A stretch of DNA of 64,000 nucleotides, taken from an uncultured Gammaproteobacteria bacterium (GTDB lineage Bacteria; Patescibacteriota; Microgenomatia; Levybacterales; UBA12049). The DNA lies in NCBI GenBank assembly GCA_964571255.1, contig CAZNAA010000001.1:487674-551673 (forward strand). Direction: 5' to 3'. The position numbers and the translations under genes are program-made. Position 1 is the stretch's first letter. Each line of letters begins with the position of its first letter. The notes under the pieces were generated by a model. It was not told the origin of the DNA. It ran no database searches and saw only the letters and a list, made by a program, of their open reading frames with translations. Positions 1,126-63,635 of the stretch are shown here, one piece after another.

Positions 1126-1225
1126 TGATTAAGGGGTTTGTATCTTTGTTCCATTATAATATGGAGAATAAGTATTCCTGTCAATAAGAGATTATCTCAG
1201 AAATATCCTATGATATACTGTGGCT

Positions 1226-37902: not shown

Positions 37903-38661
37903 TTAACGATACTTACCTAGTATCGCATTTTTCTTAATAACCAGCAAATCTCTCAGTCCAAAAATAGAATCTTTTACTGGACTTACGCGTCTTGTTTCGA
38001 CATATAGCCACTCCACAGGGACTTCTTTAATTCGATAGCCTTTAATGGAAGCTAAATACAAAAGTTCTACATCAAATCCAGCTGAGACACTGGATCCCTT
38101 CACTGCTTTAAATCCATTATGAAGCTTATGTACCTTTGTAAATAAATCTTTTGCTGCAGCATGCTCAAAAATCTTAAACCCACACTGGGTATCTCTTACT
38201 CCTTTAAGCCCTACAATTATCCCTCGAAGAAGCATATTTGCTCGTGCCATGATGATTCGAAAAATTGGTGATCCTTTTCTTTGATTGTTTCGAGATCCAA
38301 TGACAACTTTATATCCTTTTTCAAAATGAGGAAGTAAGTTATCAATCTCATCAATAGGAGTTGCCTGATCCATGTCAGTAAATAAAATATATTTTCCGTT
38401 TGCCTGAAGTACTCCTGTTGTTACTGCTCCTGCTTTTCCTAAATGAGGATTTTCTACTAGCCTGAACTCCGGATGTTCCCTCATAAACTTTTTAATAAAT
38501 TCGACACTTCCATCTTTTGAACCATCATCCACAACAATTACTTCATAAGAGAATTTTTTGTGCTTGAGGAAGTCATCTACCTTCTCCAAAACTCCCTTTC
38601 GTAGGTTTGCCATTTCTTCGTAACAAGGGATAATTACTGATAAATGAGGATTTTGCGCCAT
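37903..38661 (-). CDS. GT2 glycosyltransferase (GtrB/ArnC/Dpm1-like polyprenyl-phosphate sugar synthase)
   Basis: LSVIIPCYEEMANL...VIVVDDGSKDGS...FTDMDQATP. The true start is the internal ATG (MAQNPHL) at 38661; the track ORF extends to 38724 through a non-Met codon. Confidence 0.8.
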   Translation of the reverse strand: MAQNPHLSVIIPCYEEMANLRKGVLEKVDDFLKHKKFSYEVIVVDDGSKDGSVEFIKKFMREHPEFRLVENPHLGKAGAVTTGVLQANGKYILFTDMDQATPIDEIDNLLPHFEKGYKVVIGSRNNQRKGSPIFRIIMARANMLLRGIIVGLKGVRDTQCGFKIFEHAAAKDLFTKVHKLHNGFKAVKGSSVSAGFDVELLYLASIKGYRIKEVPVEWLYVETRRVSPVKDSIFGLRDLLVIKKNAILGKYR

Positions 38662-38757
38662 ATCTTTAGTATACAAGAAAATTGGGAATTGGTACACAGA
38701 GTATAGCAAATTATAGGACCTCAAACAAGCTTAAAAGTATAATTATTGCGTACATTT

Positions 38758-38766
38758 TGATATAAT
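38758..38766 (+). promoter_or_regulatory. Extended -10 element TGATATAAT, 12 nt upstream of tRNA-Glu
   Basis: Exact TGnTATAAT match. The same 9-mer precedes the start codons of 38948 and 58023. Confidence 0.4.
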
Positions 38767-38778
38767 GATCTCCTATAC

Positions 38779-38850: not shown

Positions 38851-38932
38851 CAAGAAGCTATGTTTTAGGAATCATCTAACCTTCCCAAAGTTTTGAAGCT
38901 AATTCGGTTCCAACTGTATTTTGGTTTGTTAG

Positions 38933-38941
38933 TGATATAAT
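38933..38941 (+). promoter_or_regulatory. Extended -10 TGATATAAT, 6 nt upstream of ATG (leaderless start)
   Basis: TGATATAAT followed by tcaaat then ATG at 38948; no Shine-Dalgarno. Confidence 0.45.
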
Positions 38942-38947
38942 TCAAAT

Positions 38948-39532
38948 ATGAAACGTATTGTTCTTGTTCATGGTTGGGGAGGCGGACCAAATGGAGATTG
39001 GTTCCCTTGGTTAACAGAAGAACTTCAGAAAACTAACTTAGAGATAATCGCCCCCCAACTACCTGGTACATATAATCCAAGAATTGAGAATTGGGTTCCT
39101 ACTCTTGCTAAGGCAGTTGATGTTCCAGATGAAAATACATTTTTTATAGGGCACAGTATGGGTTGTCAAACAATTGCACGATACCTTGCAACCTTACCAA
39201 AAGATATTAAAATTGGTGGAGTTATATTTGTTGCAGGTTTTTTTGATAGCTTGAACGAAGACGAGTATGATGCTGCAGATAAAGAAACAGCAAAATTATG
39301 GTTAAGGGCTCCACTTGATCTTGAAGTGGTCAAATCTCACATACAGAAAAGTATTTATTATATTTCTGAGGATGATCCAGATGTTCCAATATTAAACAAA
39401 GAGCGTTTTGCAAAGGAACTTAATTCTGAAGTTATAATTCTGAACGGATATAAACACTTTAATGACCCTACGTTGCCTGTAGTTCTTGAAAAGATTCTTG
39501 AACTAACTGATTCTAATTCCTATGGTAGTTAA
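38948..39532 (+). CDS. RBBP9/YdeN-family alpha/beta serine hydrolase
   Basis: VLVHGWGGGP...FFIGHSMGCQ (GxSxG nucleophile elbow); 194 aa, typical of this small hydrolase family. Confidence 0.75.
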   Translation: MKRIVLVHGWGGGPNGDWFPWLTEELQKTNLEIIAPQLPGTYNPRIENWVPTLAKAVDVPDENTFFIGHSMGCQTIARYLATLPKDIKIGGVIFVAGFFDSLNEDEYDAADKETAKLWLRAPLDLEVVKSHIQKSIYYISEDDPDVPILNKERFAKELNSEVIILNGYKHFNDPTLPVVLEKILELTDSNSYGS

Positions 39533-39641: not shown

Positions 39642-40586
39642 TTAGCCTACTCTACAAGGCGCTGGAATATTTGGATCTACCTTCCAAACATCCATATCTC
39701 CTCGATGAAACCTGCAATTATACATATCAAAAGGCAGTCCCATTAAAGTAGCATCAGGGGGAATAATTACATCATCCATTGCGTAAAGAAATGCCCAATA
39801 GGTAGGATCTCTATCAATATAGTTTCTCCAAGGATTCAAGTTGAATTCAATATCACCCTTTGCTACAACTGCTTTTATCTTACCTGCAATTACTTCCTTA
39901 TGAATAGTGTTTCTTCTAATAACGCCTGCCGGAAATTGTTCTCCTACTGATGCCCATTCTCTTTTTTTTCTCAGATATGAATGTGTCTTTTCTGGGGAGT
40001 ACCATGTTGCTGAAGCTAGATGAGCAGCAGATGTCCAAGCCTCTCTTTCAAAAACAGGTGCGTACGGTTGCGGCTTATGTTGTTGGACGAGTTCATGAAT
40101 TTTTGTCACCCACTCTGGTTGCAATCCGTAAAAGACAGAACCTTCAAAAAAACCAAGTTGTGCAATCATCTCAGGAAGCATATCACTGATAAAAGTTGGG
40201 CCAGTGAGAGGATGATAAGCTTTGTTACCGTTATTTAATCCTTCAGCAGTAACTCTCCAATCAACATTTGAGGATACTCCTTTAAGATATGGAGAAAACT
40301 CTTGTCCTAATTCAAATGTTTGATTTTCTACTACTACTCCAGGAACTAACTCTTGAGGTCCTGGTTTTCGATATCGATAAAACTCATTGTAGGATGCAAG
40401 GAGTGTTCGTAAACTTCCTCCAACCTCTTGAGCAGTCACTCCCAGAGCTTCTAATATAGCTCTGTCACGAGCAACTACAACATCAAAAGACTCTCCTTTA
40501 GCAAGGTATTCTCCATTCCCGAACTCTCTATAGGCCTGAGTATAATTATATTCTGATGGATCTACTATTTCATGCCTGTAACTCAT
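39642..40586 (-). CDS. Hypothetical protein (314 aa), atypical composition
   Basis: Long ORF with clearly higher GC and fewer Lys/Ile than neighbours. No family recognised by eye. Bracketed by repeat copies R1 and R2. TATAAT plus 5 nt upstream of the ATG. Confidence 0.6.
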   Translation of the reverse strand: MSYRHEIVDPSEYNYTQAYREFGNGEYLAKGESFDVVVARDRAILEALGVTAQEVGGSLRTLLASYNEFYRYRKPGPQELVPGVVVENQTFELGQEFSPYLKGVSSNVDWRVTAEGLNNGNKAYHPLTGPTFISDMLPEMIAQLGFFEGSVFYGLQPEWVTKIHELVQQHKPQPYAPVFEREAWTSAAHLASATWYSPEKTHSYLRKKREWASVGEQFPAGVIRRNTIHKEVIAGKIKAVVAKGDIEFNLNPWRNYIDRDPTYWAFLYAMDDVIIPPDATLMGLPFDMYNCRFHRGDMDVWKVDPNIPAPCRVG

Positions 40587-40603
40587 TGAGGAATTATAGC
40601 ATT

Positions 40604-40722: not shown

Positions 40723-40971
40723 TTAGTCTTATAGTTTGCATTTTTCTCTTCTGAGGCGTATAATCTTCTTAGTTTTAGGCTTGAACTGTTTCTAATTGCA
40801 GAAGTTTAGTAGAACCTAAAATAGTTTAATTCTCTTGCACATTAATAGTTGTGGAAATAAGCCTGCTTTTTCTGAAGCCAGTAGATAGGGAAAGAACTAC
40901 TTCTTTTTCTGTTTACTCGCTTCAGAACCTACCGGGGAGTCTCGGTTAGCAAAGAAGCGGAGGAGGAAAGA

Positions 40972-41331
40972 ATGGAACTAGCAGCGTTGCTCCAAGAGCT
41001 CTTTGGAGCAGAAAACGGGATTACCATTAATCCCGAGCAAATTCCAACACACGACCAGGTGATTGCTACGGTAGGACATATGCAACTCGTTGCTTGGAGG
41101 ATTTATATTATCGTGACCCCAAAGGACACACATAGGATACGCTTCCATGTCAAGGGGAAGCGAGGATATAAGCCCACCCCGTCCCAGATTAAGCGAGCGT
41201 TGAGTGGGTTAACGCTTGTGGCAAGGAAGGGAGAGGATGAGCCAATACCACTTAACTGGAGTCCTATCACCGGGTGGTATGAGGGAAACTTGCCGGAAGG
41301 GCAAGTAACAATCATGCCAGTAATTCCATAA
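40972..41331 (+). CDS. Hypothetical protein (119 aa), GC-rich relative to the window
   Basis: About 50% GC ORF in a 33% GC window. Strong GGAGGAGG Shine-Dalgarno 6 nt upstream, unlike the leaderless native genes. Followed by a GC-rich imperfect hairpin at 41357-41388. No recognisable family. Confidence 0.5.
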   Translation: MELAALLQELFGAENGITINPEQIPTHDQVIATVGHMQLVAWRIYIIVTPKDTHRIRFHVKGKRGYKPTPSQIKRALSGLTLVARKGEDEPIPLNWSPITGWYEGNLPEGQVTIMPVIP

Positions 41332-41407
41332 TCAAGCAAGAGAAAGGTGATCCCCGGCATCGCGCTGGGGGTCACCTGACTCTCAATTTCACAATTAGTT
41401 CATCTAT

Positions 41408-41482: not shown

Positions 41483-41761
41483 ATTTATCTTCATCCTATA
41501 TAGTTCATTAGATAGAGGAATCTTCAGTAAAGATTTTTTCGTTTGGGGAACATGGTCTGCACCAAAATATGCTTGAAGTTCCTGATAGCTATTATTTTCG
41601 TTAGCCAACTGTGCACTAGAACATTTCTTTGTTCAGTAGTATGCTCACTTGCAATTGGTCCTCCTTCCCTTGCGGCATCATCTACCTGTAATACTAATGG
41701 CTCAACTTCTGCTTTTACAACTTGATCAGGATAATTCTGTACAAAGACCAACTCTAGATGA

Positions 41762-42229
41762 TATGGTAGTACTATAAAATTCCTTCTTATAAGTTTTATT
41801 TTTATTCTCTTTTTTCCATCTCATGTAAAAGCCGAGGGAATTTATACTACTGATAAACTCATTACCGTAGATATTGGTTCTCAGACTCTTACCGCTTGGG
41901 AAGGAGGAAAAGTTCAACATACAACAAAAGTATCTACTGGAATGTATCTGACTCCCACTGTAAAAGGAGGATTTAAGATTAAAACAAAGCTTCTAAAACA
42001 AGATATGAAGGGACCTTCTCCTTACAAAGCGTATCATCCTAACGGAAAGTATTATATAAAAGACGTTCCTCACGTTATGTATTTTTACCAAGCCTATGCT
42101 TTCCACGGAGCATACTGGCATAACAATTTTGGATCACGCGCAAGTCATGGATGTGTTAACCTTCCTCTCACCTCTGCTGAGTGGTTATATAACTGGGCAC
42201 AAGTAGGGACTCGAGTAGAAATCTTCTAA
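41762..42229 (+). CDS. L,D-transpeptidase (YkuD domain) with signal peptide; start codon out of frame (possible frameshift or pseudogene)
   Basis: In-frame translation upstream of the track ORF (41942) gives the signal-peptide-like KFLLISFIFILFFPSHVKA, then ITVDIGSQTLTAWEGGKVQHTTKVSTGM. Downstream is the catalytic motif HGAYWHNNFGSRASHGCVNL. The only upstream ATG (41758) is offset by one nucleotide from this frame. Confidence 0.6.
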   Translation, partial: YGSTIKFLLISFIFILFFPSHVKAEGIYTTDKLITVDIGSQTLTAWEGGKVQHTTKVSTGMYLTPTVKGGFKIKTKLLKQDMKGPSPYKAYHPNGKYYIKDVPHVMYFYQAYAFHGAYWHNNFGSRASHGCVNLPLTSAEWLYNWAQVGTRVEIF

Positions 42230-42251: not shown

Positions 42252-43370
42252 TCACTTTTGCTTAATTCGTTGAGCAAGTAGTTCATAGACTGAGTCGATT
42301 CCTAAATCAGTTTTGACTGAAATAAAGAGTGGTTCATGTTCTCCGTATTTCTCTAAGACTTTTTCTCTATCTAACTTAGATGCTCTATCCACTTTATTAA
42401 AGATATAAATAGAATCGGTAATATCTCTTCCTAAGTCTTTTAAGATATCATTCACCACATCAATTTTAAACTCATATTCTGGATCTGAAATATCAATAAC
42501 ATGAAGAAGAATATCTGCATGAATTGACTCCATAAGTGTTGATCTAAAAGCTCCGATAAGACGAGGTGGTAAGTTTCGAATGAATCCAATGGTATCTGTT
42601 AACAATACTTCCTGTTCAATTTGTGGCAGATAAAACTTCCCAACGGTACTATCAAGGGTTGCAAAAAGAGCATTTTCAACCAGTACATCCTTTTTGGTTA
42701 GTTTATTAAACAAAGAGCTCTTCCCAGCATTGGTATAGCCAACAATGGATACTGTTTTTAAGCCAGATCTTCTCCTGGCATCTACTTGATCCTCTTTACT
42801 CTTCGCAATTTTTTCTAACTTATCATTGACACTTTTTATCTCGTCTCTCCAGTGCCGTTTCATAAGCTCTGTATTTGTTTCTCCTACTCCCAAGGTCCCA
42901 ATTCCCCCTCCTTGTCGAGACAATACAAATCCCATGCCATAAATTCGAGGTCCCATATACCTCATTCGGGCGAGTTGAATTTGCAATTTTGATTCAGTGG
43001 TTACAGCATGCTTATCAAAAATTTGTAAGATCAAATCAACCCTATCCCATACTTCAATAGCAGGATTCGCTTTTTGAAAAGCTGTTTTAAGAGCATGAAT
43101 TTGACGAGGTTTTGCAATAGCATTAAGTACTACCACATCAACGTGAATCTCCTTCATCCGTTGAAGAACCATCTCAACCTTTCCTCTCCCAATATAGGTT
43201 CCGTTATGAGGGTTATCAAGTTTTTGGATGACTCGATCAACAATCACACCACCTAAGGTAGTGATGAGAGATTCTAACTCTTCTCCCACATGAATTGAGC
43301 GCTCTGTATTCGCTTGTGGGTTGATCACATGAATAGGGAGTACTTTAATCGTTTTCTTAACGTCTAGCAT
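42252..43370 (-). CDS. hflX: GTPase HflX
   Basis: HflX N-domain followed by G-domain G1 VSIVGYTNAGKSSLFN, G3 DTIGF, G4 NKVD. TGGTATAAT plus 6 nt before the ATG. Confidence 0.85.
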   Translation of the reverse strand: MLDVKKTIKVLPIHVINPQANTERSIHVGEELESLITTLGGVIVDRVIQKLDNPHNGTYIGRGKVEMVLQRMKEIHVDVVVLNAIAKPRQIHALKTAFQKANPAIEVWDRVDLILQIFDKHAVTTESKLQIQLARMRYMGPRIYGMGFVLSRQGGGIGTLGVGETNTELMKRHWRDEIKSVNDKLEKIAKSKEDQVDARRRSGLKTVSIVGYTNAGKSSLFNKLTKKDVLVENALFATLDSTVGKFYLPQIEQEVLLTDTIGFIRNLPPRLIGAFRSTLMESIHADILLHVIDISDPEYEFKIDVVNDILKDLGRDITDSIYIFNKVDRASKLDREKVLEKYGEHEPLFISVKTDLGIDSVYELLAQRIKQK

Positions 43371-43534
43371 AGATTCATTATACCATCTATAGGCTTATCA
43401 AAAACTTGAGTCATGAAAAAAGGGATAAAAAGAAGTCTTTAGAATTAATATTTCAGCCTTAAAGGGAAGGTTTTAAATGTTTTCTCAACTCCTGTTTTTT
43501 TCTCAATCCCTTTTGGAGTAAATACAATAAAAAT

Positions 43535-45928
43535 TTAGTCTGCTTGTACTGGAACACGCATGACACGTTGTTGAGTTGGTTTTGTCTCAACTGGTTTTAC
43601 GGGCTTAATCTGTTTTGTTAAGGCAAGCTTTAAGACCTCATCCATATGAGAGACAAATTCAAAAGTTAAATCCTCAAGTACTTCTTTTGGAACATCTTCT
43701 AAATCCTTTTTATTATCCTTTGGAAGAATAAGAGTTTTTAGCCCTGCACGATGTGCTGCAATAACTTTTTCTTTTACTCCACCAATTTCCAAGGCTCGTC
43801 CTCTCAAAGTTACCTCACCAGTCATTGCTACTGTTCTTTTGACTGGAATTTTTGTTAAAGCTGAAACAATAGCAGTAGTAATCGCAAGCCCAGCTGATGG
43901 ACCATCTTTTGGAACTGCTCCCTCAGGAACGTGAATATGAATATCAATCTTTTGATAGAAGCGTTCTGGAATTCCCATCTCTCCAGCTCTTGCTCGAATA
44001 TACGATAACGCAGCTTGGCCTGATTCTTTCATCACATCACCTAACTGTCCGGTTAAGATAAGATTTCCCCGTCCTGGCATTAAGGCTACTTCAATAAACA
44101 TAATCTCTCCTCCTGCTTCAGTCCAAGCAAGACCAGTTGACATTCCAATCTCATCTTTCTTCTCAATCATTGAGGCACTGTGTCTTGCAGGTCCCAAGTA
44201 GGTTGGAATATCTTTAGGAGTAATAGTGACTTTCTTCTTATTTCCTTCAGCAACTACTCGAGCAATTTTTCTAAAGACTGCAGCAATACGACGTTCCAAA
44301 TTTCGAACTCCTGCTTCTCTGGTGTAATGTTGAATAATAAATTGAATTGCTCCGTCAGTGAGATTAACCTTTTTCTCTTTAAGTCCATTCATTTCCAATT
44401 GTTTTTTAAGTAAATACTCTTTTGCAATCTTAAACTTTTCATCATGGGTATATCCTGCAAATTGAATAACCTCTAATCTATCTCTTAGTGCTGGAGGAAT
44501 GGTATCCAAAAGATTAGCTGTTGTAATAAAGAGTACATTGGATAGATCAAATGGCACTTCTAGATAGTGATCGGAAAATTCAATGTTTTGTTCTGGATCT
44601 AGTGCTTCAAGCAGAGCACTGGATGGATCTCCTCGAAAATCAGCTCCCACTTTATCAATCTCGTCCAGCATAAATACAGGATTATTCGTTCCTGAATCTT
44701 TGATTCCTTGGATAATTCTTCCAGGAAGTGCACCTACATACGTACGTCTATGTCCTCTGATTTCAGCTTCATCTCGAATTCCACCAAGAGAAACTCTGAC
44801 AAATTTTCGATTAAGTGACTTGGCAATAGATTTACCAATGGACGTTTTTCCAACTCCTGGAGGACCTACGAAACAAAGGATTGGTCCTTTCATTTTTCCA
44901 GCAAGTTGCTGTACTGCTAAGTATTCAAGAATACGTTCTTTGGCTTTTTTGAGTCCAAAGTGGTCTTGATTTAAAATTTCCTCAGAAGTTTTGATATCAA
45001 TAGGCTCACCTGGCTCTGTATTCCATGGAAGACTCACTAGCCAATCAACATAATTTCTAATATATCCAGCTTCTGGATTATATTGATTCATGTTTTGAAG
45101 TTTTTTAATTTCTTTTCTAACCTTTTCCTCAACGTCTTCTGGCATTTTGGCTTCTTTCACTTTGAAAAGAAGTTCTTTGATCTCATCATCTTCCTCTCCT
45201 AGTTCTTTCTCAATTGTTTTAAGCCTCTCTCTAAGCATGGCCTCTCTTGCGCCTTTTTCAAATCGCTCTTGAGTTTTTGAGGCAATTCGCCGCTCAAGCT
45301 CTAATACTTTGATTTCTTTCGCTAGAAGTTCTGTAATCTTTTGCAATCGAAGCTTGACATTAGTCATTTCCAAAAGGAGTTGACGCTCTTGAGGTTTGAT
45401 ATCCAAAGCTGAAGCAATATAGTCAGAGAGCTCAGATGCTGACTCCACAGACATGATATTCATAAAAACAAGAAAGTCAGCGGTTTTGCCATAATTCATT
45501 GCTTTTCTGAATTCATTTCGCAAATGATTACAAAGCGCTTCAATTTCAGGAGAAGTTTCTAACTCATCCTCAAGTTCCACAACTCGAGCCATAAGATAGG
45601 AATCATATTGTTCAAATCCTACGATTTTGACTCGAACCAGTCCTCTAACTTGAGCATTAATCTCTCCATCAGCTCTAATCATTCGCTCAATTCGAGAAAG
45701 CGTTCCAATACTATAGAGGTCTTCAATGCTTGGATCATTTAGCCTTGCGTTTTTTTGCAGCACAAAACAAACGACACGCTCTTGTTGAGAAAAAGATGAT
45801 TCAAGGGCTGCTAAACTTTTTGGTCTGCCAAACGTCAAGACTGAGTCTGTATGGGGAAATATTATACCGTCGCGGATAGGGATTACCGGAACCAATCTTT
45901 CTGTGGGCACTTTTTCAGAGTAGTTCAT
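43535..45928 (-). CDS. lon: ATP-dependent Lon protease
   Basis: LON N-domain, AAA+ Walker A GPPGVGKTS, protease domain PKDGPSAG with the Ser-Lys dyad context; 797 aa. Confidence 0.95.
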   Translation of the reverse strand: MNYSEKVPTERLVPVIPIRDGIIFPHTDSVLTFGRPKSLAALESSFSQQERVVCFVLQKNARLNDPSIEDLYSIGTLSRIERMIRADGEINAQVRGLVRVKIVGFEQYDSYLMARVVELEDELETSPEIEALCNHLRNEFRKAMNYGKTADFLVFMNIMSVESASELSDYIASALDIKPQERQLLLEMTNVKLRLQKITELLAKEIKVLELERRIASKTQERFEKGAREAMLRERLKTIEKELGEEDDEIKELLFKVKEAKMPEDVEEKVRKEIKKLQNMNQYNPEAGYIRNYVDWLVSLPWNTEPGEPIDIKTSEEILNQDHFGLKKAKERILEYLAVQQLAGKMKGPILCFVGPPGVGKTSIGKSIAKSLNRKFVRVSLGGIRDEAEIRGHRRTYVGALPGRIIQGIKDSGTNNPVFMLDEIDKVGADFRGDPSSALLEALDPEQNIEFSDHYLEVPFDLSNVLFITTANLLDTIPPALRDRLEVIQFAGYTHDEKFKIAKEYLLKKQLEMNGLKEKKVNLTDGAIQFIIQHYTREAGVRNLERRIAAVFRKIARVVAEGNKKKVTITPKDIPTYLGPARHSASMIEKKDEIGMSTGLAWTEAGGEIMFIEVALMPGRGNLILTGQLGDVMKESGQAALSYIRARAGEMGIPERFYQKIDIHIHVPEGAVPKDGPSAGLAITTAIVSALTKIPVKRTVAMTGEVTLRGRALEIGGVKEKVIAAHRAGLKTLILPKDNKKDLEDVPKEVLEDLTFEFVSHMDEVLKLALTKQIKPVKPVETKPTQQRVMRVPVQAD

Positions 45929-46002
45929 AAAATTGTATTAGCACTCTATCATAGGAGTTGCTAGCTGTCAAGTGGCGGATTGTCCAAAAATGACGAAAAA
46001 AC

Positions 46003-47481: not shown

Positions 47482-47800
47482 AATGTATTTTTACCTTTAC
47501 AAACAGTACGGGTAATATTCTTCAGAAGGAAAACTTCTTGTGAAGATAGTTTGAAGTATTAGGTATTTACCTCTTCGATTATATCAGAAAACTCATACTT
47601 ATGGGTCTTTTATGCTAATTCACTTAAAGTAATTTTTACCTAGGTAAAGAATCAGTTTTACGTATTTTATGGAAAAATTAGAGATTGTATTGTCAATAAC
47701 TCTCTCCTTTAGCTTAAAAACTTGATTTTTCTGTAAGAACCTTTACTATTAACCTAGTCCTATCCAAAAAACAATAAAAAATATTTTTTAAAGGAAGGAG

Positions 47801-48076
47801 GTGAATATGTCTAAATCAGCACAATCACGAATTATTTCAAGTATTATTGGTGCAGCAATTGGAGCGGCTGCAGGAGCGTTAGCTACTGCTCTTACCGACG
47901 AGAAGAAAAAAAAGATGATTAAAAAAACTCTTGCCGAGGCAAAGAAATCTTTACAACAAAAAATTGACGAAATTGTTGAACTTGCAGGAGATGAAGGAAA
48001 AGAAGTGTTAGAGAAAGTAAAACAAAAAGCTCTTAGAAAACCAGCTAAAAAAATTAAAACTAAGGTAAAAGCATAA
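47801..48076 (+). CDS. YtxH-like (DUF948) small protein, N-terminal glycine-zipper helix plus coiled coil
   Basis: IIGAAIGAAAGALATAL followed by a Lys/Glu-rich helix; GGAGG Shine-Dalgarno 7 nt upstream. Confidence 0.5.
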   Translation: MNMSKSAQSRIISSIIGAAIGAAAGALATALTDEKKKKMIKKTLAEAKKSLQQKIDEIVELAGDEGKEVLEKVKQKALRKPAKKIKTKVKA

Positions 48077-48113: not shown

Positions 48114-49052
48114 CTATAAATTGCTTATTTCACTTTTTAGTGAATCTAGATAATGTATTCGTTGGATTTCATTTTCGTTTCCATAAAGCAGACGATTACT
48201 CCAGTCTTCAATTTCTGAGAGATTCCATCTTATACGATAAAATTTTAAAATATTTTCATCCAAAGTAAATTTTCCAACAATGCTTTCATATCCTTCTGTT
48301 AAAGATGGAGTATTTTCAATCATAAAGAAATCTTTTTCTTTTGGAGCCAATAATACGCCATCCCAATCAACTAAATATATTTTCCTTTGCTCATCAACCA
48401 TAATATTCCATCCATGAGGATCAGAATGACAAATAACAAACTCTATCCGTTTTTCTTTGAGTGAATTACTTATTTCTTCTAATACATCTAACTTTTGTAT
48501 TATCTTTTCTTTATTAATTTGTAATAATACTCTTGCCTCTTTTTCTTCTTTATTCTCTTCTTCGGAAGAAAAATCAGATAGACACCTGATCAGACTTGTT
48601 TTAAAATCCAAAGAGAAAGTTTCTTTTAATTCCAGTTTCCCTATTACTTCATCAGCTTTATGAAGTTTTCCTAACAAGACTCCTAATTCAAATTGCTGAT
48701 CCGTATCAAGAGGTGTATCAGCAACAATGTTTCCATTAATAAATGGAAACATTGCAGTCGGATAGGAATCAAGAAAGAAAAATGCTTGGTTTGTCTTCGT
48801 CTTAATCGGATATACGATCGAATTAATTCCACATTCTTCATGAAGTCTCAATAATACTTGCAGCCTAATATCAGGTGACTGTATCCCAGTATGAATTTTG
48901 AGAAAGTATATCTTGTGATCAGAAGATTCAACTTTATACCCCCAAGAGCATTCTCCTCCCTTCATGAAGGCAAGTGAGGTAACTTCAAGGCCATAGTGCG
49001 TAGAGATGCTATGAAGAATAGAACTGATAGAGATAGAAGGCTCTGTAAGCAT
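48114..49052 (-). CDS. Phosphotransferase-enzyme-family small-molecule kinase (APH/choline-kinase-like)
   Basis: Brenner motif HSDPHGWNIMV and an IDWDG (DFG-equivalent) motif. Confidence 0.65.
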   Translation of the reverse strand: MLTEPSISISSILHSISTHYGLEVTSLAFMKGGECSWGYKVESSDHKIYFLKIHTGIQSPDIRLQVLLRLHEECGINSIVYPIKTKTNQAFFFLDSYPTAMFPFINGNIVADTPLDTDQQFELGVLLGKLHKADEVIGKLELKETFSLDFKTSLIRCLSDFSSEEENKEEKEARVLLQINKEKIIQKLDVLEEISNSLKEKRIEFVICHSDPHGWNIMVDEQRKIYLVDWDGVLLAPKEKDFFMIENTPSLTEGYESIVGKFTLDENILKFYRIRWNLSEIEDWSNRLLYGNENEIQRIHYLDSLKSEISNL

Positions 49053-49073
49053 ACTGAATAGTATATTCTATAC

Positions 49074-50549
49074 TTAATTAAAAATCCTATTCCAAATAGA
49101 TCGGAGCGAAAAACTACGTTGAGATACTGTTTTAGAAGTTGATGAAGGCAGTGTCAACGCAGATTCATCAGGATATTCAGTTTGTGGATCAAAGATTGAT
49201 CTTTTGATATTTTCTCCATTAATAAACTGAGCAATTTTTCGCCCTCCATAAATTGATGGAAGGATTCCTACTCCATTACACCCTAAATTATAAAGAAGTA
49301 CAGGATTTAGTGGTTCAGGCCCAATACAGCGCAAGCCATTTGGTGTATATCCCATTAGACCATGCCACTTATACTGATACTTTATTTCTCCTTTCGGTGC
49401 AAACATATACGTTTGATGCAAAAATTCATCAATTACTTTCTGAGCTTCTTCAGGATAAGAATGTTCTTCTTTAGAATATTTGTTTGTATCCTCCATTAAT
49501 ACTTCTGGACCTCCAATACAGATCAAACTATCTTTTTGATTTTCTTCCAATTCAAAGGTACGACGAGTTAAATAAAAATACGGATCATTTTCCATTGCAC
49601 TACTTGCTGTATTCGTTTTAGGAAGGTAGCTAATTGCAACAGGTGGCATGGTATGTTCTTCAAGGTATGCCGCCATATACCCTACTGCTCCATTTACTAA
49701 ATGGTGGAATTTAGTATTAATATCTTTTCCTACTCTGTTCGTAATTTTAAACTTCTCAAATCCATTCGTACACAATACGACTCGATCAGCAACTACTTCA
49801 AACTCTCCCACTTTTAACTGGGCAAATCCATTATCTAAACAAACTTCTTTTACATGACTATGTTCAAAAAATTCAAATCGCTTTTTATAGTGTTCAACCA
49901 AATATTCCAGTATTTCTTCACAAAACAGCGCACTATTCATACACCCTTTTCTTGCAGAAAGTGCAGCAATATAGCGTGAGTCTTTCGTTTGAAGGAGAGA
50001 GAGAACATCAATATGAGGAACCAGTGAATATAACCCATTATATTTTTCAGGGATTCTTTTCTTATCTAAAAACTCTTCAGAAATTACTAAAGGTTCCATA
50101 TTTATCGCTACTTCCCGGCTGTACCAATTATTTTCTAAATGCACAAGAATTTCATCTAAATCCTGACAACCTGCATATCCTGTAAACTGAGCAAAGGGGG
50201 TTTTAATATTAGTATTTACAAATATTTGCTCGAGTAAATTCCAAGCAGAATTTACTGCTTTTTGTGCATCAGCAGCTAATTCTAACCCATATTCTTTTAC
50301 TAATCCTGAGAGTTGCCTTTCAAAGTAACTAACAACTTGTCCAGCGTTATGTCCAGTTGCACCATGGGCAATTTTATCTCCCTCTAGCAACAGGACATCT
50401 CTATCAGTATGTTTTAGAATGTAATAAGCAGACGCAATACCTGCTATTCCCCCTCCAACAATTGCAATATGAGTTTTTTTGTTTTCTTTTAGTGTATGAC
50501 TTGGAAGTTTTCTTTTCAGTTGAGTAATCCAGGGGGAGGTATTGGGCAT
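49074..50549 (-). CDS. FAD-dependent oxidoreductase (DAO family)
   Basis: IAIVGGGIAGIASAY dinucleotide-binding motif, GHNAGQV, and C-terminal GCNGVGILPS. Confidence 0.7.
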   Translation of the reverse strand: MPNTSPWITQLKRKLPSHTLKENKKTHIAIVGGGIAGIASAYYILKHTDRDVLLLEGDKIAHGATGHNAGQVVSYFERQLSGLVKEYGLELAADAQKAVNSAWNLLEQIFVNTNIKTPFAQFTGYAGCQDLDEILVHLENNWYSREVAINMEPLVISEEFLDKKRIPEKYNGLYSLVPHIDVLSLLQTKDSRYIAALSARKGCMNSALFCEEILEYLVEHYKKRFEFFEHSHVKEVCLDNGFAQLKVGEFEVVADRVVLCTNGFEKFKITNRVGKDINTKFHHLVNGAVGYMAAYLEEHTMPPVAISYLPKTNTASSAMENDPYFYLTRRTFELEENQKDSLICIGGPEVLMEDTNKYSKEEHSYPEEAQKVIDEFLHQTYMFAPKGEIKYQYKWHGLMGYTPNGLRCIGPEPLNPVLLYNLGCNGVGILPSIYGGRKIAQFINGENIKRSIFDPQTEYPDESALTLPSSTSKTVSQRSFSLRSIWNRIFN

Positions 50550-50585
50550 ATTTTTATAATAACAAAAAGTAACTATTTGATAAAA

Positions 50586-52405: not shown

Positions 52406-52810
52406 TTATTTGGTTGCAACTTGCGCGCAATGCGAACAGCGTTTTGCTTGAAGAGGTATCTCGCTTAGACACTCTTTACACTTTTTGGTTGTAGGATCTG
52501 CAGGCGGTTCTTTATGGGATCTGGCAATAAGCATATTCATCGGCTTGACCACAAAGAAGAAAATTGCGCCTGCAACAAGAATAAAGGAAATGAGTGCGTT
52601 AATAAAATGGCCATACATAAATTTACTTCCGTTTAATGTGAAAGAAAGGCCTCCAAAATCAGGAACCTTGGCAATTGCCGCTATTAATGGAGTCAAAAGA
52701 TCTGAAACAAGAGCTGTAACAACAGTACCAAAAGAAGCACCTATCACAACACCAACTGCTAAATCAACAACATTCCCTCGAAGTAAAAATTGTTTGAATT
52801 CTTTAAACAT
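52406..52810 (-). CDS. mscL: Large-conductance mechanosensitive channel MscL with C-terminal CxxC...CxxC zinc-ribbon tail
   Basis: MFKEFKQFLLRGNVVDLAVGVVIGASFG is the canonical MscL TM1. The C-terminus is KKCKECLSEIPLQAKRCSHCAQ. Confidence 0.85.
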   Translation of the reverse strand: MFKEFKQFLLRGNVVDLAVGVVIGASFGTVVTALVSDLLTPLIAAIAKVPDFGGLSFTLNGSKFMYGHFINALISFILVAGAIFFFVVKPMNMLIARSHKEPPADPTTKKCKECLSEIPLQAKRCSHCAQVATK

Positions 52811-53101
52811 AAGTTCTTAGCTATTTAATAATGTTAATTATAGCACCTTATCTTTCTTTAGCAATACTATACCTACCTTTCTGGATAATATCAAACACGG
52901 TCAACTACTTCTGAAATTGCCCGCAACTAATTAAACTCTTTAGGTAAATAGTTTACCGACTTTGTTTAACGTTCATCAGGAACAAACCGTAAAGCAACAG
53001 CGGATCACTATTAAACCAGGCTCCGCCAGGAATGAGCTCTGGTACTGTTGGACCCTTTGGACTCGATACATCAAACATAGGCTTTCCCATGTCTTCTTTC
53101 T

Positions 53102-55098: not shown

Positions 55099-55320
55099 AT
55101 TCTAGTTTGCCACTAGGTTCCTTGTCAAGCTGTCATGACATGTTAATATCTCTTGCAATCAAATAAATCTGCAAAGCTATTACACCCGGAGTATAGCAAT
55201 CCTTGAATTTAGCGAAAACTAGTAATTTACCTATATAGCATCTATCCTTCAGAATATATCTAAGATACAGAATGCCTGATATGTATGTCACCTACAAATG
55301 ATTTAGACTATACTAGTAAT

Positions 55321-57258
55321 ATGAAATCTTTTTTCGTGTTCATAGTTTTACTGCTTTTCATATCATCTTTTTTTACTCCTCAGACTAATGCTGCTTCTCC
55401 TATAGCTTCTCTTCCTTTGATTAGTCGATCTATACCCGCCTATTCATCAGATGATTGTTTTGCTAATTATCCAGCTAGTCGAGCCAATGATGCAGACTAC
55501 TCCACACAATGGAGATCTTGCGCGGCACAACCGTCATCTGGATCACCAGTGACAATAAGTTATGATCTGTCAGGAATAGCTTCTGATTCACGAAAAAATG
55601 TAGTTCTAGCCTGGTATAACGACCCTACTACCAGTCCTTATGACCATACCATTATTCTGCCCACCTTTGCTTATAACATGCCGGCTAACTACACCATCCA
55701 AGCCAATAGTGCTGCTGGAGGTAGCTTACCTGGAAGTGGATGGGTAACACTCGTCACCGTCACAGGTAATGTTTTTCATTCCAGACAGCATGTCTTAAAT
55801 TTGGAAGGATACAATTGGATACGTATGTCAGTTACTGCTACAGATGGTGCAGTAGCAAACTTTGACGTATCCTTAAATATGGATATTCATAATAGCTCCT
55901 CGGGCGTAATTGATAACTGGCTATTTTTAGGAGACTCAGTAACGCAATATGGCCTTCAGCATGACTCAACACATGGCAATACCTTTGGGCAACTAGTTAA
56001 CGCATCAAACAACACGTATTACCCACTTCAGGAAAACGGGGGGATAGCAGGCGCAAGCAGCACTAATGCAGTTGCTAGTATAAGCGCGTGGCTCACAAAT
56101 TTTCCAGGCAAATTTGTCGTTTTAAACTACGGGACCAATGATGCAAATCTAGCAGGTGCAGGAGACCCAACAATTGGCACAACATTTTATAACAATCTCC
56201 TTTCGCTCGTAAATACAATTGAGACTGCAGGCAAAATTGCAATTATCCCACATATTATTTATGGGAAAACTACTAATATCCTAAGCAATGCACCCACTCT
56301 CAACACAAAAATTGATCAACTATATACTGATCATCCCAGTATTATCCGAGGTCCCGATCTGTGGTCATACTTTAACACCAACGAGAGTTATATCTCAGGA
56401 GATAACATTCATCCTACAGATCCAGCTGGTTATACTGCATATCGCCAACAATGGGTTAGCTGGGCACTAAATACAATATATACTACTCCAAATCTAACAA
56501 TTACTCCACTTAGTGGAACTTTCAGTTCAAATCAATCTGTAACTATCACTTCTGATAAATCTTATTCAACTATTTACTACACTCTTGATGGAACCACTCC
56601 AAGTACAAGTAGCAGTGTCTACACAACGCCTTTAACTATCTCCTCTAATACAACTTTAAAAACTTTTGGAGCTGATCAAGCAGGTAATATATCAGACACT
56701 ACTACTATCACCTATACATTCCCCACCCCAACTCCTTCCAGTTCTTCACCGTCTTCTTCAAACTCAATACCAAATCAAAATCACCCATCAGGATGGAAAA
56801 ACGAAATCCATTTCGGTCCAAATTATATGGGTAATCAAACATTTAAAACAGGTGACATTAAAACGAAAGGAGCCTCTATTTTTATTCCTAAATCAGCCAC
56901 TTTTATTGATGTTTTAACCGACATTCAAGCACTATCATCTGGAACACTGATAAATACAAATCTTGCTCCCTTCCCGTGGATGCAAAAATATAATATTGTG
57001 AGTGAATTTTTTCAATTTTCTGCGACTTCTTCATTTAATGGATACCCCGTTACCTCTTTTGTAAAACCAATAATTATTACTCTCCCGTATAAAAAGACTC
57101 ATGGTATTACTAAAAAGCAGCTACAGATTATTTATTACAATACTCAGAAGAAAAAATGGCAATCAGTCAATGCTCCTTTTGTTATCGATGAAAAAAAAAT
57201 GACAATTTCTACTACGACTAACTTTCTCTCTGTTTTTGCAGTAGGATATAAAAAATAA
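55321..57258 (+). CDS. Secreted multidomain carbohydrate esterase: signal peptide, F5/8-type-C/CBM-like domain, SGNH/GDSL hydrolase domain, chitobiase/hexosaminidase C-terminal-like domain, Ser/Pro linker, C-terminal domain of unknown function
   Basis: MKSFFVFIVLLLFISSFF signal peptide; DADYSTQWRS lectin-like region; FLGDSVT GDS(L) catalytic block; TIYYTLDGTTPSTSSSVYTTPLTISSNTTLKTFGADQAGN. Start chosen at the ATG preceded by TATACT plus 6 nt; the track start 55285 is 12 codons upstream. Confidence 0.65.
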   Translation: MKSFFVFIVLLLFISSFFTPQTNAASPIASLPLISRSIPAYSSDDCFANYPASRANDADYSTQWRSCAAQPSSGSPVTISYDLSGIASDSRKNVVLAWYNDPTTSPYDHTIILPTFAYNMPANYTIQANSAAGGSLPGSGWVTLVTVTGNVFHSRQHVLNLEGYNWIRMSVTATDGAVANFDVSLNMDIHNSSSGVIDNWLFLGDSVTQYGLQHDSTHGNTFGQLVNASNNTYYPLQENGGIAGASSTNAVASISAWLTNFPGKFVVLNYGTNDANLAGAGDPTIGTTFYNNLLSLVNTIETAGKIAIIPHIIYGKTTNILSNAPTLNTKIDQLYTDHPSIIRGPDLWSYFNTNESYISGDNIHPTDPAGYTAYRQQWVSWALNTIYTTPNLTITPLSGTFSSNQSVTITSDKSYSTIYYTLDGTTPSTSSSVYTTPLTISSNTTLKTFGADQAGNISDTTTITYTFPTPTPSSSSPSSSNSIPNQNHPSGWKNEIHFGPNYMGNQTFKTGDIKTKGASIFIPKSATFIDVLTDIQALSSGTLINTNLAPFPWMQKYNIVSEFFQFSATSSFNGYPVTSFVKPIIITLPYKKTHGITKKQLQIIYYNTQKKKWQSVNAPFVIDEKKMTISTTTNFLSVFAVGYKK

Positions 57259-57903: not shown

Positions 57904-58022
57904 AATATGCTGTATCTGATACCAGCAAAAAAAAGTATTGCTAGATAAAAACAATCATTATCTATTATACCACTCAAAATAAGAATAGATTAAGAATTTG
58001 CTAAAAATGATATAATAGACCT

Positions 58023-62526: not shown

Positions 62527-62573
62527 ACTCAGTTTTCTTGCATTGTAGCGTATGTATTCCATATACTCAAGGT

Positions 62574-63635
62574 ATGTGGACACTTCACTCAACTACTGAA
62601 TGGGTAAAAACAGGACTAAAATGGATTAGTATTTTTCTTTTGGTAGTATTAGGAATATATCTCTTATATCGTGGAGGCTTACTAGTTAAAGAATACTTTT
62701 TCCCAACACCTGTTGAACCACCAAACGTACTATATGGAAAACTTCCAAAAATAGAATTTCCCAAAAACGTCGTTTCAGGAGATTTCACCTATGACTTGCA
62801 AACTATTACTGGTTTTCTGCCTAACTTTACTGACAGAGGACCAGTTCGTGAATTCCTTTTTAACACGACAAGTCTTCTTGACGTAGATCGAGCACGAGAA
62901 AAAGTAGCTAAAATAGGTCTTACACTTAAAGAGTCTGGGACTGTTGAGGAAAATTCTCTTACTCCTATTATGTATCAATGGACTCAAAAAGGAGAAACTC
63001 CTCAAACAGTTACGCTTAATACATTAAATAATACTCTGTCCTATGTCACTCCCTATCTTTCCAATCCTGAGTTAAGTAATATCCCTCTTATTCTGACTCC
63101 TGATCAAATAGTAAATATTGGAGTAGACTTTTTCTCTCGTATTGGTCTTTTCCCCCCAGATATTGACCCTAAACTTTCCCATATCACTTTCTATCGCTTC
63201 TCAAATGGAATTTTAACACCTGTCAAAAAACAAGCAGAATCTCAAATTGCCCGAGTAGACTTTGTCCAAAAGCCACTTGATGCTCTTCCTTTTTCCTATA
63301 CCTATCCACCAAAAACGAATATCAGTGTTCTAGTCACCTCAGAAGAATTCCAAGGAAGAGTCGTTCAAGCAAGTTATTTTTACCAAAAATATACTGAAGC
63401 GTTGGCAACGTATCCTATAAAGTCATCATCACTTGCGTATGAGGAGTTAAAGGATGGAAAAGCCTATATCGCCTCCTATACGGGAACAAACCAAACGATA
63501 AAGATAAAAGATATGATTCTTGGGTATTATTTGCCCTCAGAAGATTCTAAATACCTTTATCCTATCTTTGTTTTCACTGGGGAGGATAATTTTATTGCAT
63601 ACCTTCCGGCTATTACTAGTGAATGGTTTGAATAA
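62574..63635 (+). CDS. Hypothetical membrane-anchored extracytoplasmic protein
   Basis: Single N-terminal TM WISIFLLVVLGIYLLY, then a 320 aa Ser/Thr/Asn/Pro-rich domain. Start placed at the ATG preceded by TATACT plus 6 nt. Confidence 0.5.
   Translation: MWTLHSTTEWVKTGLKWISIFLLVVLGIYLLYRGGLLVKEYFFPTPVEPPNVLYGKLPKIEFPKNVVSGDFTYDLQTITGFLPNFTDRGPVREFLFNTTSLLDVDRAREKVAKIGLTLKESGTVEENSLTPIMYQWTQKGETPQTVTLNTLNNTLSYVTPYLSNPELSNIPLILTPDQIVNIGVDFFSRIGLFPPDIDPKLSHITFYRFSNGILTPVKKQAESQIARVDFVQKPLDALPFSYTYPPKTNISVLVTSEEFQGRVVQASYFYQKYTEALATYPIKSSSLAYEELKDGKAYIASYTGTNQTIKIKDMILGYYLPSEDSKYLYPIFVFTGEDNFIAYLPAITSEWFE

What the first reader, a model, noticed from the sequence alone, without database searches (positions are those of the whole stretch)
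38933..38950. Recurrent leaderless architecture: (TGn)TATAAT-N6-ATG at many gene starts
The same spacing is seen at 1211-1228 (TGATATACT-gtggct-ATG), 38933-38950 (TGATATAAT-tcaaat-ATG), 58008-58025 (TGATATAAT-agacct-ATG), 55309-55323 (TATACT-agtaat-ATG), 62562-62576 (TATACT-caaggt-ATG) and, on the minus strand, HflX (TGGTATAAT-gaatct-ATG at about 43371-43388). With a TSS 6-7 nt after the -10, these mRNAs would start at or within a base of the A of ATG, so they are leaderless and lack an SD. This explains why the ORF track often starts at upstream TTG/GTG codons, and it gives a practical rule for re-calling starts in this genome. The minority of genes with strong GGAGG SDs (40972, 47801) stand out against this background.
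Basis: seen in the sequence. Interest (0 to 1): 0.55.

Follow-up and report, generated by a model that had tools for sequence, protein, structure and literature searches.

The report
Leaderless gene starts in a CPR bacterium
In this small-genome candidate-phyla-radiation (CPR, Microgenomates) bacterium and its relatives, many promoters sit so close to the start codon that the mRNA should begin at the ATG with no ribosome-binding site; this mechanism is already known from other bacteria and is extended here to a new low-GC lineage, where it matters mainly for calling gene starts correctly.

Summary
TATA[AC]T-N6-ATG occurs 9 times in the window against 1.9 expected. Eight of the nine sit on the start codon of a real gene.

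The window is about 35% GC and comes from a Microgenomates (Levybacteria-like) CPR bacterium. In about 1 Mb from 89 related loci, TATAAT is followed by an ORF-opening ATG 56 times at exactly 6 nt, against a background of about 3-4. GTG shows the same peak (21 against about 1.5) and TTG shows none.

Four results mark the motif as a promoter -10 box rather than a translation signal:
- An extended -10 TGn is enriched (36-38% against 5-6%).
- The motif marks first genes of transcription units, with only a small peak at internal genes.
- It also precedes tRNA genes, 8-12 nt from the mature 5' end.
- It is conserved in position across orthologues (GT2 24/24, HflX 11 of 15).

Shine-Dalgarno motifs are no commoner than at control ATGs. 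A phage T4 control gives the opposite picture.

The leaderless reading is therefore strongly supported, but it is inferred: no transcription start site was mapped.

Verdict: a new member of a known kind (GeneMarkS-2 "group C" architecture). It differs in its low GC content and in having almost no SD even at internal genes.

The parts
38933..38950 (+). Focal site: extended -10 TGA-TATAAT (38933-38941), 6-nt spacer, ATG 38948 of a Ser_hydrolase-family alpha/beta hydrolase (38948-39532)
   Evidence: Sequence. The TGA of the extended -10 is itself the in-frame stop, so no upstream start is possible. Pfam Ser_hydrolase profile position 1 aligns to residue 4. Public gene calls in four assemblies use the same start. 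No SD is present.
1211..1228 (+). TGA-TATACT, N6, ATG 1226 of a Metallophos_2 phosphoesterase (1226-1903)
   Evidence: The Metallophos_2 profile aligns 1-152 to residues 1-187, so the protein starts at profile position 1. The mechanical ORF start, GTG 1220, lies directly after the hexamer.
58008..58025 (+). TGA-TATAAT, N6, ATG 58023 of a TPR protein (58023-59498)
55309..55323 (+). TATACT (no TGn), N6, ATG 55321 of a secreted GDSL/CHB_HEX_C protein; the mechanical ORF start at 55285 is probably wrong
   Evidence: A start at 55321 gives MKSFFVFIVLLLFISSFFTPQTNAAS, a typical signal peptide. A start at 55285 adds 12 polar residues in front of it.
62562..62576 (+). TATACT (no TGn), N6, ATG 62574 of a membrane protein (62574-63635), divergent from gltX
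   Evidence: Orthologues in L056 and L066 (32-40% identity) keep TATACT-caagac-ATG. The start at 62493 would overlap gltX.
43368..43385 (-). TGG-TATAAT, N6, ATG 43370 of HflX (42252-43370)
   Evidence: In 11 of 15 orthologous loci from Microgenomates genomes (46-66% aa identity) a TATAAT-like box lies 5-10 nt before the ATG.
40584..40601 (-). TGC-TATAAT, N6, ATG 40586 of a 314-aa protein with no Pfam hit (39642-40586)
   Evidence: Public gene calls use the same start.
38659..38676 (-). TATACT, N6, ATG 38661 of a family-2 glycosyltransferase, the first gene of the tightly packed minus-strand cluster 1910-38661
   Evidence: All 24 orthologues in related loci carry TATAAT 6-8 nt before an ATG or GTG start.
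50547..50564 (-). TGT-TATTAT, N6, ATG 50549 of an FAD oxidoreductase (49074-50549)
49050..49068 (-). TATACT, N7, ATG 49052 of an APH-family kinase (48114-49052); the promoter lies in the 21-nt gap after the upstream gene
41759..41776 (+). TGA-TATGGT, N6, ATA 41774: the same architecture in front of a YkuD L,D-transpeptidase whose signal peptide begins at an ATA codon
   Evidence: The orthologue in L017 has TGGTATCAT-agtcat-ATG MKRLLFLII. The ATA is identical in two other assemblies.
38758..38778 (+). TGA-TATAAT promoter 12 nt upstream of the mature 5' end of tRNA-Glu (38779-38851): the same 9-mer driving a non-coding gene
   Evidence: In window plus relatives, 37 of 51 tRNA genes have such a hexamer 8-12 nt upstream.
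45926..45971 (-). Counter-example: Lon promoter TTGACA-17-TGA-TAGAGT, overlapped by a CIRCE-like repeat. The -10 box lies 14 nt before ATG 45928, which implies a short leader rather than none.
52808..52848 (-). Counter-example: MscL, with TGC-TATAAT 28 nt before ATG 52810. This implies a leader of about 21 nt with no SD.
40955..40974 (+). SD-led gene: GGAGGAGG, 5 nt, ATG 40972
47790..47809 (+). SD-led gene: AAGGAGGTGA, 2 nt, ATG 47807 (GGAGG core 47797-47801, 5 nt before the ATG; YtxH-like protein). The 10-mer is a perfect complement of the canonical 16S 3' end.

Best explanation
These are sigma-70-type promoters, mostly of the extended -10 class (TGnTAnnnT with a weak -35). The -10 hexamer ends 6 nt, less often 7-8 nt, before the start codon of the first gene of a transcription unit.

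Bacterial RNA polymerase starts most often at the 7th base after the -10 hexamer. It prefers a pyrimidine-purine-pyrimidine triplet centred on the start. So transcription should begin at the A of tATG or the G of tGTG, and the resulting mRNA has no 5' leader and no Shine-Dalgarno sequence.

Translation would then start by direct recognition of the 5'-terminal AUG or GUG by the ribosome with initiator tRNA. This is the known leaderless pathway.

Downstream genes in operons also mostly lack SD. They overlap or abut the preceding gene, with ATGA the commonest junction, so they are probably translated by termination-reinitiation coupling.

Shown here: the motif, its exact spacing, its promoter character, its restriction to first genes, its conservation and the scarcity of SD. 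Inferred: the transcription start position and the mode of translation.
For: Window statistics. There are 9 TATAMT-N6-ATG against 1.86 expected, and 8 of the 9 are at gene starts (P about 2e-12). The offset histogram spikes at d=6 only.

Relatives (89 non-redundant loci, 1.02 Mb, 32-43% GC):
- TATAAT followed by an ATG opening a long ORF: d=6, 56; d=7, 37; d=8, 18; background about 3-4.
- GTG: 21 at d=6 against about 1.5. TTG: no peak.
- The reversed hexamer ATTATA shows no peak.
- The excess survives collapsing to protein families: 172 families at d=6-8 against 85 and 71 at control offsets.

Promoter identity:
- TGn precedes 5/14 (window) and 16/42 (L001-L015) of the start-proximal hexamers, against 33/643 and 57/927 of other hexamers (P=7e-4 and 7.5e-9).
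- Canonical TTGACA-17 boxes are seen at several sites, and TTGT-type -35 boxes across the GT2 orthologues.
- The same motif lies 8-12 nt upstream of 37 of 51 tRNA genes.

Position in operons. 187/478 first genes have a hexamer at d=5-12, against 19/659 control ATGs. Internal genes show only a small peak.

Conservation. GT2, 24/24 orthologues with ATG or GTG starts. HflX, 11 of 15. hyp353, 2/2. YkuD, 1.

SD scarcity. SD 4-mers occur before 7.5% of first genes and 12% of internal genes, against 8.6% of control ATGs. G is 5-17% at positions -12 to -4 of internal genes.

Method control. 50 kb of phage T4 (34% GC, SD-led) gives 0 hits at d=6 for the -10 hexamers and a strong SD peak at d=5-8.

Literature. 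The TSS is typically 7 bp downstream of the -10 element, and a YRY start element fixes it there (PMC12641261). A Pribnow box 6-8 nt from the start codon defines bacterial leaderless 'group C' genomes (PMC6028130).
Against: No transcription start was measured, so the leaderless state rests on spacing rules taken from other bacteria.

The only CPR species with mapped TSS, Nanosynbacter lyticus, shows a more variable -10-to-TSS distance than most bacteria (PMC12641261).

The T at -1 that completes the YRY triplet is also common before internal genes (53%, against 60% at d=6 sites and 40% background). It is therefore weak evidence.

The -35 box is not significantly enriched.

Some genes have further -10-like boxes upstream, which could give leadered transcripts as well. 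An example is TGCTATACT about 33 nt before the GT2 start.

The related loci were all collected around two genes, Lon and HflX, so neighbouring genes recur. This is mitigated by the family-collapsed count but not removed.
Confidence: 0.85

Rival explanations
1. The promoters are real, but transcription starts a few bases away from the start codon. The mRNAs then carry very short leaders of 1-5 nt rather than none.
For: Spacings of 7-12 nt are common in relatives. In the window they occur at PIF1 (N10) and APH (N7). The -10-to-TSS distance is reported as more variable in the one CPR species with TSS data.
Against: In the window the spacing is almost always exactly 6. That puts the A or G of the start codon at the modal TSS position within a YRY triplet. 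A leader of 1-5 nt cannot hold an SD, so such mRNAs are functionally treated as leaderless.
Confidence: 0.08
2. The AT-rich hexamer is a translation signal on longer, leadered transcripts: a non-SD ribosome-binding or S1-binding element, as in Bacteroidetes-type 'group B' genomes.
For: The lineage is SD-poor, so some non-SD mode of initiation must exist. Positions -7 to -4 of internal genes are A-rich.
Against: In group B the motif precedes all genes, internal ones included (PMC6028130). Here it marks first genes and is weak at internal genes. It carries the RNA-polymerase-specific TGn extension. It precedes tRNA genes, which are not translated. Its absence before TTG starts fits a purine TSS and is not predicted by the RBS reading.
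Confidence: 0.04
3. The pattern is a chance product of AT-rich sequence, or an artefact of mis-called starts where the true start codon lies further downstream.
For: TAnnnT is very frequent at 35% GC: 3051 copies in the window, with no visible peak for this loosest pattern.
Against: Shuffles give 1.86 against 9 observed. Eight of the nine hits are at gene starts. The T4 control at the same GC shows no peak. The starts are confirmed by Pfam profile positions, by a signal peptide and by orthologue N-termini. At 38948 no other start codon is possible.
Confidence: 0.02

Closest known systems
Bacterial leaderless-gene genomes (GeneMarkS-2 'group C': Mycobacterium tuberculosis, Streptomyces, Corynebacterium, Deinococcus deserti)
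   Same: A TANNNT Pribnow box lies 6-8 nt before the start codon of first genes in operons. ATG and GTG are used as 5'-terminal start codons. Roughly 25-50% of transcription units are affected (PMC6028130). The window has about 10 of 22 protein-coding units at N6-7, and relatives have at least a quarter.
   Different: Group C genomes with genetic code 11 are almost all high-GC (bioRxiv 10.1101/2022.07.25.500264), whereas this lineage is 32-43% GC. In group C the leadered and internal genes carry SD sites; here they mostly do not. The phylum is also different: CPR/Patescibacteria, Microgenomates.
Low-GC leaderless Mollicutes (Mycoplasma; GeneMarkS-2 group C with genetic code 4)
   Same: Reduced genomes, low GC and 30-60% predicted leaderless transcripts. 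From my own knowledge, their promoters are dominated by the -10 box with a weak -35.
   Different: Mollicutes use code 4 and belong to another phylum. This window reads with TGA as a stop, and the TGA of the extended -10 at 38933 closes the frame.
Extended -10 (TGn) sigma-70 promoters
   Same: TG sits one base upstream of the -10 hexamer at 36-38% of the start-proximal boxes, with weak or absent -35.
   Different: None in kind. What is unusual is the placement against the start codon.
Archaeal leaderless transcription (GeneMarkS-2 'group D': Haloferax, Sulfolobus)
   Same: The first cistron is leaderless, and overall SD use is low.
   Different: The archaeal promoter box lies about 26 nt upstream and is recognised by TBP/TFB. 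Here the element is a bacterial -10 box at 6 nt.
Non-SD AT-rich RBS genomes (GeneMarkS-2 'group B', Bacteroidetes)
   Same: SD use is rare, and the sequence just upstream of start codons is A-rich.
   Different: The group B motif precedes all genes and cannot be a promoter. Here the motif is specific to first genes, carries TGn and also precedes tRNAs.

Membership tests
Bacterial leaderless genes (GeneMarkS-2 group C architecture) | A -10 (TANNNT) box ending 6-8 nt upstream of the start codon of first genes in operons, enriched over background | tested here: met
   Window: 9 against 1.86 expected, with 8 at gene starts. Relatives: peak at d=6, 7 and 8 of 56, 37 and 18 against about 3-4.
Bacterial leaderless genes (GeneMarkS-2 group C architecture) | The primary transcript 5' end coincides with the start codon (5' UTR of 0-5 nt) | not testable with these tools
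   No RNA data are available. Inferred from the modal 7-bp distance from -10 to TSS and the YRY start element (PMC12641261).
Bacterial leaderless genes (GeneMarkS-2 group C architecture) | No Shine-Dalgarno sequence upstream of these starts | tested here: met
   Of the first genes with a -10 at d=5-12, 183 have no SD 4-mer and 4 have one. None of the window sites has one.
Bacterial leaderless genes (GeneMarkS-2 group C architecture) | The 5'-terminal start codon is AUG or GUG | tested here: met
   ATG gives 56 and GTG 21 at d=6; TTG gives 2, which is background. One exception in the window is the ATA at 41774.
Bacterial leaderless genes (GeneMarkS-2 group C architecture) | Leadered and operon-internal genes use SD ribosome-binding sites | tested here: not met
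   SD 4-mers precede 12% of internal genes against 8.6% of control ATGs, and there is no G enrichment at -12 to -4. Only a minority, such as 40972 and 47807, are SD-led.
Extended -10 sigma-70 promoters | TG at -15/-14, one base upstream of the -10 hexamer; -35 dispensable | tested here: met
   TGn at 5/14 against 33/643 (P=7e-4) and 16/42 against 57/927 (P=7.5e-9). The -35 match is not enriched.
Extended -10 sigma-70 promoters | The motif drives transcription independently of translation, so it is also found at RNA genes | tested here: met
   37 of 51 tRNA genes have the hexamer 8-12 nt upstream of the mature 5' end, and 9 of the 13 at d=10 carry TGn.
Non-SD AT-rich RBS (group B type) | The same motif lies upstream of all genes, including internal operon genes | tested here: not met
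   Internal genes give 9/166 at d=6, against 49/478 for first genes and 16/70 for genes after 26-59-nt gaps.

The most novel reading that the evidence does not exclude
Microgenomates CPR bacteria may run an almost SD-free gene-expression regime with three components. Promoters abut the functional 5' end of both mRNAs (leaderless first cistrons) and tRNAs (inferred pre-tRNA leaders of about 1-5 nt, from -10 boxes 8-12 nt upstream). Downstream cistrons are translated through ATGA-type overlap coupling. SD is reserved for a few genes. If so, this would be a low-GC, code-11 bacterial lineage whose initiation landscape resembles that of leaderless archaea more than that of typical bacteria. It might be linked to the reduced CPR ribosome. 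The YkuD gene, whose 5'-terminal codon is ATA, hints that non-AUG/GUG leaderless starts might be tolerated.
Probability: 0.35. Interest if true: 0.6.

Novelty: new member of a known kind. Interest (0 to 1): 0.4.

Why it matters
Practical value. Start codons in CPR metagenome-assembled genomes are called by tools tuned to SD sites or to the longest ORF. In this window the -10/N6 rule corrects four mechanical starts: 1220 to 1226, 38724 to 38661, 55285 to 55321, and 62493 to 62574. The same architecture also points to a 56-residue N-terminus with a signal peptide, missed because it begins at ATA rather than ATG (YkuD). Wrong starts distort signal-peptide, localisation and domain predictions.

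Biological value. The result extends frequent leaderless initiation to a low-GC, reduced-genome phylum whose ribosomes are already known to be unusual. It also shows that SD pairing is marginal there even for internal genes. This raises a testable question about how CPR ribosomes choose start sites.

I found no paper in the searchable library that reports this for CPR bacteria. The mechanism itself is well known.

Tried and rejected
(1) I first read Lon (45928) as TGCTAATAC-N6-ATG. Alignment of 76 orthologous upstream regions showed that GAGTGCTAA is the right arm of a CIRCE-like repeat. The real promoter is TTGACA-17-TGATAGAGT, 14 nt before the ATG, so Lon is not counted as leaderless.

(2) The generic promoter scan that requires a -35 box was uninformative: 70 found against 60.9 expected. 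It misses most of these sites because their -35 is weak.

(3) -35 enrichment was tested and is not significant.

(4) T at -1 as evidence for a YRY start element was down-weighted, because internal genes also have T at -1 in 53% of cases.

(5) I searched all fetched loci for a 16S rRNA 3' end to read the anti-SD and found none. Retention of the anti-SD is inferred only from the perfect AAGGAGGTGA before 47807, and from PMC9297842, which reports anti-SD loss only in some Parcubacteria.

(6) Rfam found only the two tRNAs in the window.

(7) ABC-F (47481), DsbD (53866) and the 54865 gene have only weak or ambiguous boxes (TAAAAA, TAATTA, TATATA). They are left unclassified.

(8) The Nanosynbacter TSS paper (PMID 35975994) is not in the library.

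(9) No orthologues of the focal Ser_hydrolase were present in the fetched loci. I ran no further search on it, because its start is fixed by an in-frame stop and the domain alignment.

Full report
**What the window is.** The window is about 35% GC. Its HflX protein finds its best relatives, at 46-66% amino-acid identity, in metagenome-assembled genomes labelled Candidatus Levybacteria, Roizmanbacteria, Curtissbacteria and Gottesmanbacteria. All of these are CPR/Patescibacteria of the Microgenomates group. The layout is as follows:
- Positions 1910-38661 hold one tightly packed minus-strand cluster rich in glycosyltransferases.
- Positions 1-1903 and 38.7-64 kb hold many short transcription units on both strands.
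- There are two tRNA genes.

**The observation.** All six cited strings are present. Two corrections apply. HflX lies at 43368-43385. The 55309 and 62562 sites have no TGn. Four more sites of the same form were missed: 38659-38676(-), 40584-40601(-), 50547-50564(-) and 49050-49068(-, N7).

The pattern TATAMT-N6-ATG occurs 9 times, against 1.86 +/- 1.25 in dinucleotide-preserving shuffles. Eight of the nine are the start codon of a real gene, among 2021 ATGs and about 57 gene starts (P about 2e-12). I also built a histogram that assumes nothing about gene starts: it records the distance from each hexamer to any ATG that opens an ORF of at least 80 codons. It shows 5 hits at distance 6 and 0-2 at every other distance from 0 to 30.

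**Are the start codons right?**
- At 38948 the TGA of the extended -10 is itself the in-frame stop. The next codons encode the conserved RIVLVHGWGG strand, so no other start is possible.
- At 1226 the protein begins at position 1 of the Metallophos_2 profile.
- At 38661 the GT2 domain begins at residue 8, and 24 orthologues start at the same place.
- A start at 55321 gives a textbook signal peptide.
- 62574 is supported by two orthologues and by the re-called gltX start. That start is ATG 62526 (MEKVVRTRIAPSPTG), which leaves a 47-bp divergent promoter region.

**Is it lineage-wide?** I fetched 15 loci around HflX from genomes and 80 loci around Lon from metagenomes (Lon 72-80% identical). After removing near-duplicates and one 54%-GC locus, 89 loci totalling 1.02 Mb at 32-43% GC remained.

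| Hexamer and codon | Count at d=6 | d=7 | d=8 | Background |
|---|---|---|---|---|
| TATAAT then ATG opening a long ORF | 56 | 37 | 18 | about 3-4 |
| TATAAT then GTG | 21 | - | - | about 1.5 |
| TATAAT then TTG | no peak | - | - | - |
| ATTATA (reversed control) then ATG | no peak | - | - | - |

With a crude first-ATG rule for gene starts, 187 of 478 first genes have a TAnA[ACT]T hexamer at 5-12 nt, against 19 of 659 control internal ATGs. Genes after same-strand gaps of 26-59 nt show the peak too. Genes with gaps of 25 nt or less show only a small one.

Because the loci share neighbourhoods, I collapsed the hits into protein families. There are 172 families at d=6-8, against 85 and 71 at two control offsets.

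As a method control I used 50 kb of phage T4, which has the same GC content and is SD-led. It gives zero hits at d=6 and a strong SD peak at 5-8 nt. The window gives the reverse.

**Promoter or translation signal?** Four results point to a promoter.
1. TG one base upstream of the hexamer is the contact for sigma region 3 in extended -10 promoters. It is present at 36-38% of start-proximal hexamers, against 5-6% of other hexamers (P=7e-4 in the window, 7.5e-9 in relatives).
2. Many individual sites have canonical TTGACA or TTGAAA boxes at 17 nt, and the GT2 orthologues share a TTGT-type -35. Over the whole set, however, the -35 is not significantly enriched.
3. The motif marks first genes of transcription units, with only a small peak at internal genes.
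4. The same motif precedes tRNA genes. 37 of 51 have it 8-12 nt upstream of the mature 5' end, often with TGn. In the window, tRNA-Glu is preceded by TGATATAAT-N12, the same 9-mer as at 38933 and 58008.

**Why leaderless?** In 49 bacteria with mapped transcription start sites, the TSS lies most often 7 bp downstream of the -10 element. It is fixed there by a pyrimidine-purine-pyrimidine start element (PMC12641261). With a 6-nt spacer, the A of ATG or the G of GTG is that 7th base, and tATG or tGTG forms the triplet. TTG cannot, which matches the absence of a TTG peak. Eight of the nine N6 sites in the window have T at -1. This is weak evidence, though, because T at -1 is common before internal genes as well.

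A Pribnow box 6-8 nt from the start codon is exactly how GeneMarkS-2 defines bacterial leaderless 'group C' genomes (PMC6028130). No TSS was measured here, so this last step is an inference.

**How much of the window?** Of about 22 protein-coding transcription units:

| Class | Units |
|---|---|
| -10 box at N6-7 (10 units) | 1226, 38661, 38948, 40586, 43370, 49052, 50549, 55321, 58023, 62574 |
| N10-15, implying leaders of about 3-8 nt | PIF1 51935, TransReg 57903, Lon 45928, GltX 62526, CBM60 63682 |
| N28 without SD | MscL 52810 |
| Strong SD | 40972, 47807 |
| Ambiguous | the rest |

**SD scarcity.** SD 4-mers at 3-12 nt precede 7.5% of first genes and 12% of internal genes, against 8.6% of control ATGs. 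Upstream of internal genes G is 5-17% and A about 50% at -7 to -4. The commonest junction is the 4-nt ATGA overlap, in 41 of 193 cases, followed by gaps of 1-4 nt. Translational coupling is the likely mode for internal genes; this is an inference. The anti-SD is probably retained. AAGGAGGTGA before 47807 is a perfect complement of the canonical 16S 3' end, and the literature reports anti-SD loss only in some Parcubacteria (PMC9297842).

**Comparison with what is known.** The architecture is that of group C genomes (Actinobacteria, Deinococcus). It differs in three ways. First, code-11 group C genomes are almost all high-GC. Second, group C genomes use SD at leadered and internal genes, which this lineage mostly does not. 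Third, this is a CPR lineage. Low-GC Mycoplasma (code 4) are the nearest low-GC parallel. Seven literature searches found no report of leaderless architecture in CPR bacteria within the open-access library. That is not proof of absence, and NCBI's annotation pipeline, which uses GeneMarkS-2, may model it silently.

**Verdict.** This is a new member of a known kind, with an SD-poor twist. Interest is moderate: the result is useful for start calling in CPR genomes and poses a testable question about initiation on reduced ribosomes, but the mechanism is not new.

Noticed in passing
window 45926-45971 (-): The Lon promoter (TTGACA-17-TGA-TAGAGT) is overlapped by a CIRCE-like inverted repeat, CTAGCAACT-N9-GAGTGCTAA (45964-45938). 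The repeat is conserved upstream of Lon in most of 76 related loci. This suggests HrcA-type heat-shock control of lon in this lineage. The distance from the -10 to the ATG varies from 8 to more than 30 nt among relatives.
   Followed up: partly
window 41759-42229 (+): The ORF track shows the YkuD L,D-transpeptidase as a 95-aa fragment (41942-42229). The frame is in fact open from 41762, and a signal-peptide-like sequence (I/M)KFLLISFIFILFFPSHVKAEG begins at ATA 41774. That codon is preceded by TGATATGGT-agtact, the leaderless layout. An orthologue has TGGTATCAT-agtcat-ATG. The ATA is identical in two other assemblies. The gene is either dead at its start codon or uses a non-canonical 5'-AUA start.
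   Followed up: partly
window 38758-38778 (+) and 57473-57495 (-); tRNA genes in L013-L086: tRNA genes have -10 boxes, often with TGn, only 8-12 nt upstream of the mature 5' end (37 of 51). This implies pre-tRNA 5' leaders of only about 1-5 nt.
   Followed up: partly
window 1910-38661 (-) and internal genes of related loci: About 30 genes are packed with overlaps or gaps of 1-3 nt and almost no SD. ATGA overlap is the modal junction in the lineage (41/193). The cluster is rich in glycosyltransferases and PMT-like membrane proteins. A few internal -10 boxes might be internal promoters, for example TGGTATAAT-N11 before 29616 and TGGTATACT-N20 before 11182.
   Followed up: partly
window 16861-16878 (-): This is the only TATAAT-N6-ATG that is not at a gene start. 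It falls on an in-frame Met codon (residue 251) of the 497-aa gene 16120-17613. It may be chance or an internal leaderless isoform.
   Followed up: no
window 62524-62576: gltX most likely starts at ATG 62526 (MEKVVRTRIAPSPTG), not at the TTG 62592 of the ORF track. It is preceded by TACAAT-N15. It diverges from the 62574 gene across a 47-bp region that holds both promoters, and this arrangement is conserved in L056 and L066.
   Followed up: partly
window 57541-57903 (-): A stand-alone OmpR-type Trans_reg_C DNA-binding domain of about 120 aa, with no receiver domain. The related loci encode full-length response regulators that match it only from about residue 17 onward.
   Followed up: no
window 41332-41758 and 51936-52405: Two stretches of about 430-470 nt have no convincing ORF and no Rfam match. 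The first contains a GC-rich hairpin-like segment (GATCCCCGGCATCGCGCTGGGGGTCACC).
   Followed up: no
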